This document shows positions 10,175 through 13,261 of a stretch of DNA of 14,936 bases, piece after piece. Source of the stretch: Escherichia coli (GTDB lineage: Bacteria > Pseudomonadota > Gammaproteobacteria > Enterobacterales > Enterobacteriaceae); NCBI RefSeq assembly GCF_003334765.1, contig NZ_QOWT01000054.1; one strand, written 5' to 3'. The notes beneath the pieces are model-generated. The model saw only the letters and a list, made by a program, of their open reading frames with translations, did not search any database and was not told the DNA's origin. How positions within the stretch are numbered: the stretch's first letter is position 1; every line of letters begins with the position of its first letter. The position numbers and the translations under genes are program-made.

Positions 10175-10747
10175 ATGCAAAAACTTGAAAACCGGTGTGA
10201 TCTGCTGCTCACCCAGCATCAGAAATGGATGGCAAGTGTAACCCGGTTTATTGTCGCTCACGGAATGGGCTCTCCGCATCTTCATGGTTATCATCGCCTG
10301 ACCCTGGCCCACTTTTTTCTGCCGGAAAAAGGCACCATCATCTCGGTGGCACCACAGGGACTCTATCAGGTAGTCAACCCGGCAACGCCACCGTTCATTC
10401 CTGCCATTCAGGAAGGGTTAATGACCAGCATTCAGACTCATGAAATCATGTTACTTACACATTTTAACCTGGGTGGTGTTTTACTCAGTGAACTACATCG
10501 TCTGGGAGAAAGCCGACTGGCAAACAGGCTGAACAGTCTGCTCCGGCGTTTTGACGATCGCGATCTCTACCACACCCTGATATGGCTGTGCTGGTATGAT
10601 CTGATGTGCGCCCACTCCATGCAGCCCTGGACTGAAGAGTTAAAGCATAAATCACACGCAGAACTTGAAAGCTGGGCTGTGGCGCGCAAACGGGAAAAGC
10701 GCGAGCTTGAACTGATGATTGACGAGTACCTGTTATACGCCTGTTGA
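10175..10747 (+). CDS. Hypothetical protein (190 aa) directly downstream of alpA; island cargo of unknown function
   Basis: ATG at 10175-10177 with AAGGAG at 10161-10166 (8-nt spacer); the ORF-track start at 10148 is TTG. Normal GC. No motif recognised. Confidence 0.6.
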   Translation: MQKLENRCDLLLTQHQKWMASVTRFIVAHGMGSPHLHGYHRLTLAHFFLPEKGTIISVAPQGLYQVVNPATPPFIPAIQEGLMTSIQTHEIMLLTHFNLGGVLLSELHRLGESRLANRLNSLLRRFDDRDLYHTLIWLCWYDLMCAHSMQPWTEELKHKSHAELESWAVARKREKRELELMIDEYLLYAC

Positions 10748-12241
10748 TTCATAATCACTCCCGGGCGGTACGTAGTCAGTGATACCGGAATTTCCGGAGA
10801 GGGTCGCAGGTATATTGTTTCTGTGCAATTCATGGTTATTCACGTTGGATGTAGTGATTGCTGCATCCAATGCTATCGGAAAGAGATTAACCAGCAAATG
10901 GTTCCTCAAATCGTATTGATATTTACCCGGCGCATTGAGCACCACCATCTGCCCCCGTTCCCACATCAAACGGCTGGACCGGAAAACGATTTGCTTTTCA
11001 TGCTCCGTGGAAATTCACGAAAAAGTTATTGGGTCATTCATCGAAAAAAACATATTCTGCTGACTGGAGTCATCACCCAGAAATAAACGTCAACTGAACA
11101 ATAACGATTTTTTCTTTGTGGGATTCCATACACTTTTCCATCCCCCTCTGAAAATTAGTCATCAACTCACCAACACATCTTCTGAAATTTGTATTAAACT
11201 TATTGCTTAAATAGATGATATAATATCTCTTCCATTGCACGGAATCAGCAAAAACTGTCATTCTGGCAATCTTAACAAGAACATTTATCGGTTAATTTTA
11301 TCAGTAAACAAAGGAATATCATACTGATAAAATGAACATTCAGGGTAAGATGATGAAATTCACATGAAAAATGCTGAAGATTATTTATTTCATGCAGATA
11401 AACGATAAAAAACAAGAGAGTATATTTTTCAGTGTAAGAGTCAATTGTTCATCTCCACTGACGATCACGGTCAGCATACAAACAAAGTGAGTCCTCCTGC
11501 TTAGTCATTGCGTATCAAAAACTAAAAAACAAAAGATTCTGCAAACAACGTGACATTTTTTATGACATTTCCCGAATACATGTATATCAATAAACGGTAG
11601 TCATCGTTGAATTAATAAGTCTTACAGAGCTATACGTAGCTTATAAAACCACTCAACGACCATCATCACCTGACTATTTAGCGGGAGTATCGTCTGTATA
11701 AATCCATAAATAATAACACCTGTTATTAAAATAAGAATGCTGTCAGCCGTAAACTATTAACACAACACCTGTCCACTCTATCTGTTCTTTTAACTCAACC
11801 GGCGTCGAAAATATTTCCTGATTAGTGCATCATAGTCTTCTTTTTTCTTTCTCAACCATCAAACCAAACACAACATTCACAACCACACAATAAAACAAAA
11901 CCAAAAACATAAGATTAACAATGCCAGTCAACAGGAAAACACTGAATATTGAGGTGCGCTGTAACCTGGACAGCGCATACGGCGCATGTGATCAACACAG
12001 CCCATTCTTTTCTGTCATCCCCCAAATGCAGAACAAACAATCATAACCAAATGAATATAAAAGAAAATATGATTTTTCACCATCATAAAAACATCAATGT
12101 ATCTTTATATAAAAACACTGATAACATGACATAGACATTTAAAAACATAAACAAATCACAACAAAAACATTTGATAATCACTTAGTGACAAAATAAAATT
12201 GAGACGATTTTGTTATAAGAGAGGCGACATGGAGTGAGATA
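10748..12241. promoter_or_regulatory. About 1.5-kb AT-rich non-coding region, presumed promoter/leader of the 339-aa gene and a likely xenogeneic-silencing target
   Basis: No ORF over about 90 aa on either strand; the short ORFs present (10823-11086, 11073-11261, 11949-12134) have no Shine-Dalgarno or family support. Strongly AT-rich with A/C-rich low-complexity tracts near 11840-11920 and 12090-12200. Promoter elements not mapped. Confidence 0.4.
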
Positions 12242-13261
12242 ATGAATAACGAACAGATGCTTATCAAATGCAAAGATCCCCGTAAATGTCGGTTTTATGC
12301 CGAATATCTGAATCACAAATACCCCAATGAATTCCCTCAGTTTGCGCCTGACAACCCACAAAACTGTATCAGAAATGTTAATTCGTTTTTAAAAGAAAAG
12401 TATTATAAAGCTTCAAACAATTCTTTTGGTGTTTTTGGTTCGACTGCAGAAGAAGCTCTCAGCAAAGAAATTAATGAACTTGAAATTATTGCAGGGCAGG
12501 CAATACTGCCTGAAGAGAGTTTTCTCTGGTTGAAAACTGACGAACTTGCGACTTTCTTTACCTGGACTACTATTTATCTGTCGAAGGAAGACCATACAAA
12601 ATTCCCGAAAATAAACCATAATTCATCAGGAATAAAAAACGGAATTGAAGTCAGGAAAATACGAACAGTTACCGATGAAACGTTAAATACTTACAAAAAA
12701 AGTAACCTTCCGGATAATCCATCATCCCATAACGAACGAATAAAAGTAATCATTTCATATTTTGACTCCTGCCATTCTTTAATTAATAAAAATGCAAAAA
12801 GCATATACCTCGAGGAACTCAGGCAGGCGTGGCTTAAAAAGAAAAGCGCTTGTCAAAAGTTTAAGTGGTTCCTTCCTGACGATGATGAAATGTGTCAGTG
12901 GTTCTGGACAAGACTGAAACAAAAACAGGATGAAAAACATCCAGTACATAACCCAGTGACCCGGTGGTTCATACCATCTTCAACGAAAGAATATTATCTT
13001 GCCTCTCTTGTCGCCTTTGCTTTATGGAAAGAAGCGCCTGATACCATTGAACTGTTCAGAACACGAATAAATCATGCCTGGCATCAGAAAAAACAAAAGG
13101 ACAAATATCGGAGTGATGGTAAAAAGGCCATTAATATACATATAAGAAGCAATGTGAAAGAAATGCTTGATGAGCTCAGAACTGTTTACGGTCTGAGAAC
13201 AGGAGAGTTTTTTGAAATGCTGATTACAGAGAAATATCTTGAACACAAGCGAAGGAAGTAA
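12242..13261 (+). CDS. Hypothetical basic, Lys-rich protein (339 aa) in AT-rich cargo DNA
   Basis: ATG at 12242-12244 with GGAG at 12231-12234 (7-nt spacer). About 35% GC by spot counts. Followed by a strong intrinsic terminator. No catalytic motif recognised. Confidence 0.65.
   Translation: MNNEQMLIKCKDPRKCRFYAEYLNHKYPNEFPQFAPDNPQNCIRNVNSFLKEKYYKASNNSFGVFGSTAEEALSKEINELEIIAGQAILPEESFLWLKTDELATFFTWTTIYLSKEDHTKFPKINHNSSGIKNGIEVRKIRTVTDETLNTYKKSNLPDNPSSHNERIKVIISYFDSCHSLINKNAKSIYLEELRQAWLKKKSACQKFKWFLPDDDEMCQWFWTRLKQKQDEKHPVHNPVTRWFIPSSTKEYYLASLVAFALWKEAPDTIELFRTRINHAWHQKKQKDKYRSDGKKAINIHIRSNVKEMLDELRTVYGLRTGEFFEMLITEKYLEHKRRK

What the first reader, a model, noticed from the sequence alone, without database searches (positions are those of the whole stretch)
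10175..13261. Cargo slot between alpA and the GTPase/DUF932 backbone holds two unrecognised proteins, one in AT-rich DNA
In CP4-57-type elements the stretch between alpA and the yfjP-like GTPase is a variable slot; in E. coli K-12 it holds the rnlAB anti-phage toxin-antitoxin pair. Here it carries a 190-aa protein and a 339-aa basic, Lys-rich protein in about 35% GC DNA with a long AT-rich leader and its own strong terminator, and neither matches a family I recognise. These are plausible novel defense, anti-defense or toxin cargo.
Basis: partly seen in the sequence, partly recalled or inferred. Interest (0 to 1): 0.65.

Follow-up and report, generated by a model that had tools for sequence, protein, structure and literature searches.

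The report
Conserved island backbone genes, not cargo
The two "unrecognised cargo" proteins are real genes, but they belong to two widespread uncharacterised families that hold fixed places in the backbone of an E. coli-type genomic island; one is probably a self-regulating DNA-binding regulator, and neither looks like a swappable defence or toxin gene.

Summary
Two intact ORFs are present: orf190 (10175-10747) and orf339 (12242-13261; pI 9.2, 11.5% Lys, 37% GC). Before orf339 lies a 1.2-kb stretch of 33% GC DNA with no ORF over 62 aa, and after it a strong hairpin with a T-run. Neither protein matches Pfam, NCBIfam, PADLOC or PHROGs.

The interpretation as novel defence or toxin cargo is mostly not supported. 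orf339 belongs to a large family: 487 clusters at 50% identity, across Gammaproteobacteria. In 16 independent loci from more than 10 genera, a member heads the backbone block (GTPase/DUF932, antirestriction, RadC, CbeA/CbtA). In almost all of them it faces away from the Gp2/AlpA module. A high-confidence model (pLDDT 90.7) shows a helical N-domain with no characterised structural relative, plus a C-terminal ribbon-helix-helix DNA-binding domain. A palindrome (AATCACTTAGTGA, 12176-12188) lies inside the predicted promoter. It is identical in Edwardsiella and Rahnella, and it changes along with the protein subfamily. I read orf339 as an autoregulated regulator.

orf190 belongs to an Enterobacterales family that sits directly after alpA in every locus examined. 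Recognisable defence cargo lies elsewhere. Both genes are under purifying selection. Their functions remain untested.

The parts
9883..10089 (+). alpA (68 aa AlpA-family HTH), first gene of the alpA-orf190 pair
   Evidence: RefSeq annotation; my AlpA HMM gives E=5e-40.
10112..10155 (+). Conserved block in the alpA-orf190 spacer (CCGCAGCG...ATCCGGCCTCCGGAGGCATTTTGCTGCG); function unknown
   Evidence: The same block, ATCCG..CCGGAGGyTTTCTGCTGC, is found in E. coli, Klebsiella and one unassigned SRA-assembly contig, with a divergent version in Dickeya. Evidence for an RNA fold is weak: 2 covarying pairs and z = -1.06.
10175..10747 (+). orf190: divergent member (30-43% identity) of an uncharacterised 190-200 aa Enterobacterales family that follows alpA
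   Evidence: Profile search found at least 167 clusters, none with a Pfam match. Synteny is shown. dN/dS is 0.03-0.06.
10919..11063 (+). IS1 transposase remnant, a scar at the junction between the 51% GC alpA-orf190 module and the AT-rich leader
   Evidence: RefSeq annotation in five genomes; GC step.
11064..12170 (.). AT-rich (33.5% GC) leader with no ORF over 62 aa; it contains a 16-nt-arm inverted repeat at 11291-11337
   Evidence: No Rfam match. No similarity to the leaders of other genera except the operator. Comparable gaps of 0.5-1.8 kb precede orf339-family genes elsewhere; they are ORF-free by the collection's gene calls, apart from one 61-aa call in L015.
12171..12199 (+). Predicted sigma-70 promoter of orf339 (TTGATA-17-TAAAAT, 10 of 12 matches)
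   Evidence: This is a consensus match only; the number of such sites in the region is no higher than in shuffled sequence.
12176..12188 (.). Palindromic operator-like site AATCACTTAGTGA in the promoter spacer
   Evidence: The identical 13-mer lies at -62 in Edwardsiella and -77 in Rahnella, although those leaders are otherwise unalignable. Related CTAC-N3-GTAG or CTACGTAG palindromes occur in other subfamilies: 9 of 17 loci carry an exact palindrome, against 0.037 expected per 150 nt. The exact site occurs once per locus; near-copies with 2 mismatches are no more than chance.
12242..13261 (+). orf339: helical N-domain with no characterised relative (about residues 1-290) plus a C-terminal ribbon-helix-helix domain (about residues 292-339, nt 13115-13258)
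13316..13355 (+). GC-rich hairpin plus T-run, 16-20 nt before the GTPase ATG; left boundary of the conserved GTPase module
   Evidence: Conserved upstream of the GTPase in about 2,700 E. coli genomes, with a different upstream gene in each of the three loci checked.
13371..13799 (+). YfjP/YeeP-type GTPase gene, truncated here (143 aa instead of 290) by a deletion at about 13678
13899..14717 (+). DUF932 backbone gene

Best explanation
Both genes are fixed backbone components of a CP4-57/CP4-44-like integrative island. They are not interchangeable cargo.

orf339 is most likely a sequence-specific DNA-binding regulator. Its C-terminal ribbon-helix-helix domain would dimerise and bind the palindrome AATCACTTAGTGA, which lies between the -35 and -10 elements of its own predicted promoter. 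That would make it autoregulated. By read-through of the downstream hairpin it would also gate the rightward backbone operon (GTPase, DUF932, antirestriction, RadC, CbeA/CbtA). The roughly 290-residue helical N-domain would then serve for oligomerisation or for sensing a signal. The gene and its AT-rich leader probably also sit under H-NS/Hha silencing, since the island carries its own hha.

orf190 is the conserved partner of alpA. It is probably co-transcribed with alpA and acts with the AlpA/Gp2 excision-replication module.

Shown: family membership, positional conservation, the RHH fold, the conserved and co-varying palindrome, and purifying selection.

Inferred: DNA binding to that site, autoregulation, control of the downstream operon, H-NS/Hha silencing, and any role for orf190.
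For: Family size: a profile of orf339 finds 487 clusters at 50% identity, most of them full length at 300-340 aa.

Synteny: the gene maps and HMM maps place a family member at the head of the GTPase/DUF932 block in 16 independent loci from more than 10 genera. One of these is an island copy on a Klebsiella IncFIB/HI1B plasmid.

Structure: the AF2 model has pLDDT 90.7 and pTM 0.85. The C-terminal 45 residues superpose on RHH domains:
- TacA bound to DNA (7zg5), PrpA and TraM at 1.6-2.2 A;
- CopG-family models at 0.9-1.6 A.

Sequence support for RHH:
- the profile matches SvtR (2kel, E=0.004) and CopG;
- Pfam RepB-RCR_reg or RHH_1 matches 22 and 6 of 83 members at E<=0.1.

Operator:
- the identical 13-mer sits at -64, -62 and -77 in E. 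coli, Edwardsiella and Rahnella, within leaders that are otherwise unalignable;
- 9 of 17 loci carry an exact xxAC-N3-GTxx palindrome within 120 nt of the start codon, against a background of 0.037 per 150 nt;
- the exact site occurs once in each locus;
- the half-site tracks the RHH beta-strand sequence: KKAINxxIR goes with TCAC, KKALNxYLK with CTAC-N3, and KKVINTYVQ with CTACGTAG.

Composition and selection: low GC is a family trait. dN/dS is 0.18-0.24 for orf339 and 0.03-0.06 for orf190.

orf190: the family has at least 167 clusters across Enterobacterales. A member lies 85-100 nt after alpA in all but one of the loci examined; in L010 a 46-aa ORF and 414 nt intervene. The spacer contains a conserved block.

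H-NS/Hha context: the duplicated CP4-44-like island genes of strain 042 that were listed (regions 1 and 2) are mostly derepressed in hns and hha mutants (PMC6480617). This locus was not among those listed.
Against: - There is no experimental data on either protein.
- The window protein's own RHH match is sub-threshold (Pfam E=0.2).
- The promoter is only a consensus hit, and such hits are no more frequent in this region than in shuffles.
- The link between operator and beta-strand is confounded by phylogeny.
- Some family members show only imperfect palindromes, and L032 shows none.
- The operator occurs only once per locus, so nothing directly ties orf339 to other island promoters. Control of the GTPase operon depends on unproven read-through of a strong hairpin.
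- The orf339 family is not universal. K-12 CP4-57, L010, L021, L036 and L038 lack it, and this subfamily is present in only 242 of 5,426 complete E. coli genomes.
- The alpA-orf190 module in this window is inverted relative to Gp2 when compared with other genera, so operon logic taken from those loci may not carry over.
Confidence: 0.6

Rival explanations
1. One reading: one or both proteins are novel anti-phage defence, anti-defence or toxin cargo occupying a variable slot.
For: - These islands do carry defence systems. K-12 CP4-57 holds AbpAB and RnlAB, and other loci hold Gabija-like, BREX, Dnd, GmrSD and type I RM systems.
- Both proteins are functionally unknown.
- The stretch between orf190 and the GTPase varies among E. 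coli islands.
- The orf339 subfamily is accessory, present in 242 of 5,426 genomes.
Against: - No PADLOC match at E<=1.
- Both families hold fixed positions across many genera, while the recognised defence genes vary on the other side of the alpA/Gp2 module.
- orf339 carries a DNA-binding RHH domain and its own conserved operator.
- It is a single gene with no conserved partner other than the backbone block.
- No phage homologue was found.
Confidence: 0.1
2. orf339 is a replication or partition-type RHH protein (CopG/CopB/ParG-like). It would act with the Gp2-like rolling-circle initiator on an origin located in the AT-rich leader, controlling the copy number or maintenance of the excised island.
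For: - The closest sequence models are the replication regulators RepB-RCR_reg (PF10723), RepA2/CopB (NF010256) and RepC of IncL/M.
- In most genera the gene faces away from the Gp2-like gene across a 0.5-1.8 kb AT-rich gap.
- The window's leader has an inverted repeat with 16-nt arms.
- In Rahnella a near-copy of the operator lies about 22 nt upstream of Gp2.
Against: - All these matches fall far below the curated cut-offs (15-18 bits against 87).
- The operator sits next to orf339, not next to Gp2, and the exact site is single-copy.
- In this window Gp2 is 3.9 kb away, on the other side of hha and alpA-orf190.
- E. coli island L037 keeps an orf339 relative with no adjacent Gp2.
- The leaders share nothing between genera apart from the operator.
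Confidence: 0.15
3. orf339 is a zygotic-induction repressor, analogous to ArdK or KorA. It would allow a burst of the antirestriction/RadC/GTPase operon when the island enters a naive cell and then shut that operon off. This is a special case of the best explanation.
For: The layout fits: an autoregulatory operator, the gene at the head of an operon that contains an antirestriction gene, and monocistronic expression followed by an attenuator-like hairpin.
Against: This rests purely on inference from layout. The transfer route of these islands is unknown, and no additional operators were found at downstream promoters.
Confidence: 0.1

Closest known systems
CopG / RepA2(CopB) / Arc-MetJ ribbon-helix-helix repressors
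   Same: orf339 has a C-terminal domain of about 45 residues with the beta-alpha-alpha fold. That domain gives sub-threshold profile matches to these families. A palindromic site overlaps the gene's own predicted promoter, which is the classic autorepressor layout.
CP4-57 / CP4-44 cryptic prophage-like islands of E. coli K-12 (intA-alpA-yfjI-yfjJ ... yfjP-yfjQ ... antirestriction-RadC-CbeA/CbtA)
   Same: The backbone genes are the same: alpA, a Gp2-like YfjJ, a YfjP-type GTPase, DUF932, antirestriction, RadC and the CbeA/CbtA pair.
   Different: K-12 CP4-57 has neither orf190 nor orf339. There yfjI follows alpA, and abpAB/rnlAB precede yfjP. In the window, alpA-orf190 is followed by an IS1 scar, and orf339 heads the GTPase block.
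Pseudomonas tmRNA-associated genomic islands transduced by a jumbo phage (PMC12595487)
   Same: These are integrase-bearing islands whose proposed core includes alpA, an inovirus Gp2-like gene and RadC. They carry variable defence cargo and many unannotated core ORFs.
   Different: They come from a different host clade and integrate at a different site. I did not test whether homologues of orf190 or orf339 are present in them.
RHH relaxosome or partition accessory proteins (TraM, TraY, ParG, MatP C-domain)

Membership tests
Ribbon-helix-helix (CopG/Arc/MetJ) DNA-binding superfamily (orf339 C-terminus) | A beta-alpha-alpha fold of about 45 residues | tested here: met
   In the AF2 model (pLDDT 90.7), residues of about 292-339 superpose on RHH domains at 1.6-2.2 A (7zg5_D, 7ycv_A, 3on0_A) and at 0.9-1.6 A on CopG-family AFDB models.
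Ribbon-helix-helix (CopG/Arc/MetJ) DNA-binding superfamily (orf339 C-terminus) | A significant sequence-profile match to an RHH family | tested here: inconclusive
   The window protein alone gives PF10723 at E=0.2 and NF010256 at E=0.014, far below the cut-offs. Across the family, 4 of 83 members match PF10723 at E<=1e-3 and 22 of 83 at E<=0.1. The family profile matches the RHH protein SvtR (2kel) at E=0.0043.
Ribbon-helix-helix (CopG/Arc/MetJ) DNA-binding superfamily (orf339 C-terminus) | Dimerises and binds a repeated or palindromic operator | not testable with these tools
   A conserved palindrome lies at the promoter, which is consistent. Binding itself was not measured.
Pfam PF10723 RepB-RCR_reg / NCBIfam NF010256 RepA2 (plasmid copy-control proteins) | A small protein of about 80-85 aa encoded just upstream of the plasmid rep gene and scoring above the family threshold | tested here: not met
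   The protein is 339 aa. It scores 12-15 bits against a cut-off of 87. It lies upstream of a GTPase gene rather than a rep gene.
Known anti-phage defence systems (PADLOC-DB 2.0) | An HMM match to a defence-system protein | tested here: not met
   No family matches either protein at E<=1.
Variable cargo of a defence hotspot | Gene content at the position differs between related elements | tested here: not met
   orf339-family genes head the backbone block in 16 independent loci. orf190-family genes follow alpA in every locus examined. Only the DNA between orf190 and orf339/GTPase varies.
Type II toxin-antitoxin (RHH antitoxin plus toxin) | A two-gene operon with an adjacent toxin, in which the RHH is N-terminal in a short antitoxin | tested here: not met
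   orf339 is a single gene bounded by a 1.2-kb leader and a hairpin. The RHH is C-terminal in a 339-aa protein. The downstream neighbour varies between GTPase, DUF3944 and DUF932.
CP4-57/CP4-44-like island backbone | Co-occurrence of alpA, a Gp2-like YfjJ, a YfjP-type GTPase, DUF932, antirestriction, RadC and CbeA/CbtA | tested here: met
   In the window, alpA, Gp2, a truncated GTPase and DUF932 are present. The full set is present in the near-identical 042 and DLI.5a islands.

The most novel reading that the evidence does not exclude
The orf339 family is the previously unrecognised master switch of a very widespread class of gammaproteobacterial defence-carrying islands. Its helical N-domain, which has no characterised relative, would sense a signal such as entry into a new host, phage infection or release from H-NS/Hha silencing. 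The RHH domain would then release the single operator, turning on the antirestriction/RadC/GTPase/DUF932 programme. orf190 would be a new accessory factor of AlpA-driven excision.
Probability: 0.15. Interest if true: 0.6.

Novelty: new variant of a known kind. Interest (0 to 1): 0.35.

Why it matters
CP4-57/CP4-44-like islands are present in most E. coli and in many other Enterobacterales. They carry Ag43, toxin-antitoxin pairs, antirestriction genes and anti-phage systems, yet how they are controlled beyond AlpA and IntA is almost unknown.

This work shows that two "hypothetical" genes are positionally fixed members of large families. It also points to a probable RHH regulator with a defined candidate operator at the head of the backbone operon. 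That gives a concrete, testable handle on how these islands are regulated.

There is a practical consequence too. Hotspot-based searches for new defence genes should not count these two families as candidate cargo.

Tried and rejected
- Pfam, NCBIfam, PADLOC and PHROGs on both proteins and on diverse family members gave nothing beyond weak RHH signals.
- PDB sequence searches with the profiles gave only RHH hints for orf339 and nothing for orf190.
- The first AF2 run, with 6 sequences, was unusable (pLDDT 46). It succeeded only with the 83-sequence alignment.
- Rfam found nothing in 9500-13900.
- BLAST between the leaders of different genera found nothing but the 13-mer.
- Searching the window for additional operator copies gave no more than chance.
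- I tested homology of orf339 to K-12 YfjH and to the PF27701 protein at the same position in L010. I also tested orf190 against YfjI and against the 190-aa protein of L014. All were negative.
- An RNA structure in the alpA-orf190 spacer has only weak support.
A 13-sequence alignment returned 10 loci.
- tblastn found no orf339 homologue in phage records. tblastn found orf339 relatives in only 21 plasmid records. The one plasmid record examined was an integrated island copy.
- The literature searches I ran, by backbone gene names and island terms, found no study that mentions either family.
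Full report
**What the window is.** The window is part of an E. coli genomic island. It is 99.6-100% identical to islands in strains DLI.5a, 042, 55989 and O104:H4. RefSeq annotation of those strains gives the following order for the region of the finding:
- a Gp2/YfjJ-like gene (-) at 7786-8355;
- an hha paralogue (-) at 8972-9184;
- alpA (+) at 9883-10089;
- a 190-aa hypothetical protein (+) at 10175-10747;
- an IS1 transposase remnant at about 10919-11063;
- roughly 1.2 kb with no annotated gene;
- a 339-aa protein (+) at 12242-13261, named "hypothetical protein" or "transcriptional regulator";
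- a YfjP/YeeP-type GTPase starting at 13371.

In 042 the island continues with Ag43, IrmA, DUF905, DUF932, antirestriction, RadC and DUF987. CbeA/CbtA appear in DLI.5a. In this window the GTPase is cut at about 13678 by a deletion that joins it to the region upstream of DUF932 (13899-14717).

**Checking the observation.**
- orf190 has a good Shine-Dalgarno sequence.
- orf339 is basic: pI 9.2, 11.5% Lys.
- orf339 has 37% GC and the leader 33.5% GC, against 51% for alpA-orf190 and 57% for DUF932.
- A GC-rich hairpin with a T-run follows orf339.
- Neither protein matches Pfam, NCBIfam, PADLOC or PHROGs. The only signal is a sub-threshold ribbon-helix-helix (RHH) match at residues 291-334 of orf339.
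- Both are under purifying selection. Between E. coli variants 2-6% divergent in DNA, dN/dS is 0.03-0.06 for orf190 and 0.18-0.24 for orf339, and both ORFs are intact in all three variants.

**orf339 is not an orphan.** A word-indexed search found only five relatives, at 47-58% identity, in Edwardsiella, Rahnella and Yersinia. A profile built from these and run against 1.84 billion representatives found far more:
- 487 clusters at E<=1e-3, of which 240 reach E<=1e-10;
- nearly all are full length, at 290-340 aa.

Foldseek against AFDB50 shows the same family in Enterobacterales, Vibrionaceae, Aeromonadales, Alteromonadales, Oceanospirillales and even Alcaligenes. All members are labelled uncharacterised or "CopG family".

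**Structure of orf339.** With six sequences AlphaFold failed (pLDDT 46). With 83 sequences it gave a confident model (pLDDT 90.7, pTM 0.85). The model has an all-helical N-domain of about 290 residues, followed by an extended segment and two helices.
- The family profile matches the RHH repressors SvtR (E=0.004) and CopG.
- 22 of 83 members match Pfam RepB-RCR_reg at E<=0.1.

So the protein is a C-terminal RHH DNA-binding domain fused to a helical domain that has no characterised relative.

**Position of orf339 relatives.** I combined the gene maps of contigs encoding relatives with my own HMM maps of all fetched loci and one plasmid-borne copy. In 16 independent loci an orf339-family gene is the first gene of the rightward backbone block, followed directly by the GTPase in most loci and by DUF932 or other backbone genes in the rest. 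The block continues with antirestriction, RadC and CbeA/CbtA. The loci come from:
- Edwardsiella, Rahnella, Morganella, Hafnia, Siccibacter, Tenebrionibacter and Superficieibacter;
- two Vibrio and two loci of an unnamed enterobacterium;
- Klebsiella (chromosome and plasmid) and several E. coli lineages.

In almost every case the gene faces away from a Gp2-like/alpA module across an AT-rich gap. The gap is 0.5-1.8 kb and free of called genes in many loci, and longer, with an extra ORF, in L025. In the same loci the recognisable defence systems lie beyond the alpA/Gp2/zinc-ribbon module: Gabija-like OLD plus UvrD, BREX, Dnd, GmrSD with type I RM, and SNF2. Low GC is a property of the family. 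These genes are 7-21 GC points below the next backbone gene in all 13 loci compared. AT-richness is therefore not evidence of recent import.

**A conserved operator.** The leaders of E. coli, Edwardsiella and Rahnella cannot be aligned. Even so, BLAST picked out one shared 13-mer. AATCACTTAGTGA contains the palindrome TCAC-TTA-GTGA and lies at -64, -62 and -77 from the three start codons.
- In the window it is at 12176-12188, inside the spacer of the best predicted sigma-70 promoter (TTGATA-17-TAAAAT, 12171-12199).
- Other subfamilies carry CTAC-N3-GTAG or CTACGTAG palindromes at -25 to -70.
- The 290-aa E. coli relative in L037 has ATCAC-GT-GTGAT.
- Nine of 17 loci have an exact xxAC-N3-GTxx palindrome within 120 nt of the start, against a background of 0.037 per 150 nt in the same loci.
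- The exact site occurs once in each locus.
- The half-site follows the sequence of the RHH beta-strand: KKAINxxIR with TCAC, KKALNxYLK with CTAC-N3, and KKVINTYVQ with CTACGTAG.

This pattern is what a cognate autoregulatory operator would produce. However, the co-variation is confounded by phylogeny, and binding has not been shown.

**The hairpin after orf339.** The last 55 nt before the GTPase, including the hairpin, are conserved in about 2,700 of 5,426 complete E. coli genomes. Only 242 of those genomes carry this orf339 subfamily. In the sampled islands the same hairpin is preceded by a type I RM system, by an inverted yfjI, or by a different orf339 relative. It therefore marks the left edge of the GTPase module rather than serving as orf339's "own" terminator. 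Only about 16-20 nt separate the T-run from the GTPase ATG. Expression of the GTPase operon probably depends on read-through, which would make the hairpin an attenuator or insulator. That last step is inference.

**orf190.** On its own it finds almost only E. coli sequences. A two-sequence profile finds at least 167 clusters of 190-200 aa proteins in Escherichia, Salmonella, Klebsiella, Citrobacter, Cronobacter, Yersinia, Serratia, Hafnia, Dickeya and Pantoea. None has a Pfam, PHROG or NCBIfam match or a PDB relative.
- The window copy is a divergent member, at 30-43% identity, and lacks two otherwise near-invariant cysteines.
- In all but one of the loci examined a family member lies 85-100 nt downstream of alpA on the same strand. 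In L010 a 46-aa ORF and 414 nt intervene. In several loci it is followed by Gp2, a zinc-ribbon gene and then defence cargo.
- The alpA-orf190 spacer contains a conserved block, ATCCG..CCGGAGGyTTTCTGCTGC. Evidence that this block forms an RNA structure is weak.

orf190 is therefore the conserved partner of alpA, not cargo.

**How this island compares with K-12 and other E. coli islands.**
- K-12 CP4-57 has neither family. There alpA is followed by yfjI and yfjJ, and abpAB and rnlAB sit before yfjP.
- Several E. coli islands share the layout hha(-), then alpA(+), then an orf190-family gene, then a variable stretch, then the GTPase.
- Compared with other genera, the alpA-orf190 pair in this window is inverted relative to Gp2, and an IS1 scar marks the junction with the AT-rich leader. 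This arrangement is old within E. coli. It persists, scar included, in strains 2-6% divergent.
- The truly variable DNA in this lineage is therefore the short stretch between orf190 and the orf339 leader. Here it holds only the IS1 remnant.

**Most likely mechanism.** orf339 is an RHH regulator that binds the palindrome in its own promoter. Through read-through it would set the level of the backbone operon. Its N-domain would supply oligomerisation or signal sensing. The island's own Hha, together with H-NS, probably adds silencing of the AT-rich leader. Supporting this, the duplicated CP4-44-like island genes of strain 042 that were tabulated (regions 1 and 2) are mostly derepressed in hns and hha mutants (PMC6480617). 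This locus itself was not in that table.

Rival explanations:
- a replication-control or partition role with the Gp2-like initiator and an origin in the leader (confidence 0.15);
- a zygotic-induction repressor of the antirestriction operon (0.1);

**Verdict.** What remains of interest is moderate. There are two large uncharacterised families at fixed positions in a very common island type. One of them has a C-terminal RHH domain, an N-domain with no characterised relative, and a clearly defined candidate operator.

Noticed in passing
window 13371-13799 (junction at about 13678): The YfjP/YeeP-type GTPase gene is truncated, at 143 aa instead of 290. Identity to strain 042 stops at about 13678. 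The match to DLI.5a needs two pieces spanning an extra 1.8 kb, so a deletion has joined the 5' half of the GTPase gene to the region upstream of DUF932.
   Followed up: partly
window 13276-13355: The 55-nt stretch and GC-rich hairpin just upstream of the GTPase ATG are conserved in about 2,700 of 5,426 complete E. coli genomes. In the loci sampled, the upstream gene differed each time (type I RM, inverted yfjI, other orf339 relatives). The element looks like a module boundary, attenuator or insulator.
   Followed up: partly
window 8972-9184 (-): An hha paralogue (the hha2/hha3 type of strain 042) lies upstream of alpA on the opposite strand. The same layout, hha(-) then alpA(+) then an orf190-family gene, recurs in other E. 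coli islands (L037, L038). Published work links hha2/hha3 to CP4-44-like clusters repressed by H-NS/Hha (PMC6480617).
   Followed up: partly
window 10112-10155: A conserved sequence block (CCGCAGCG...ATCCGG..CCGGAGGCATTTTGCTGCG) lies in the alpA-orf190 spacer. It is shared with Klebsiella and other E. coli loci, with a divergent version in Dickeya. Evidence for an RNA fold is weak (z = -1.06, 2 covarying pairs).
   Followed up: partly
window 11291-11337 and 12117-12129: An inverted repeat with 16-nt arms (GTTAATTTTATCAGTA / TACTGATAAAATGAAC, 15-nt spacer) lies in the AT-rich leader. A third copy of ACTGATAAnATGA lies 45 nt upstream of the orf339 promoter. This could be a protein-binding or origin-like element, or chance in AT-rich DNA.
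   Followed up: no
window 853-4148 (-): An IbrB-like gene plus a PAPS-reductase gene (ibrAB-like pair), with a PerC-family regulator just upstream, are followed by two hypothetical proteins (276 and 186 aa) in about 34% GC DNA. This is another AT-rich pair of unknown function in the same island.
   Followed up: no
window 5326-7011 (-): A 561-aa protein annotated as a 3'-5' exonuclease lies among remnants of type VI secretion genes.
   Followed up: no
L023 (JAIJJM010000108.1): A 7.2-kb contig labelled 'MAG: Collinsella sp.' encodes an orf339 100% identical to the window's, plus alpA and an orf190-family gene. It is almost certainly an E. coli contig mis-binned into an actinobacterial MAG.
   Followed up: no
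L010 5453-6193 (-); L021 3381-4214 (-): In islands that lack an orf339-family gene, the position just upstream of the GTPase is held by other proteins: 246 aa with PF27701 (UCP007319), or 277 aa with no Pfam match. The PF27701 protein has an RHH-like stretch at its N-terminus, so these may be functional analogues.
   Followed up: partly
L006 6465-6477: A near-copy of the operator (AACACATAGTGAT, 2 mismatches) lies about 22 nt upstream of the Gp2-like gene in the Rahnella island. It could be a second binding site or chance.
   Followed up: no
L040 (Klebsiella pneumoniae plasmid pRWS291.s3): Large IncFIB/IncHI1B Klebsiella plasmids carry an integrated copy of the same island type with the same layout: zinc-ribbon genes, alpA and Gp2 facing away from an orf339 relative that heads the block running through DUF932, antirestriction, RadC and CbeA/CbtA.
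   Followed up: partly
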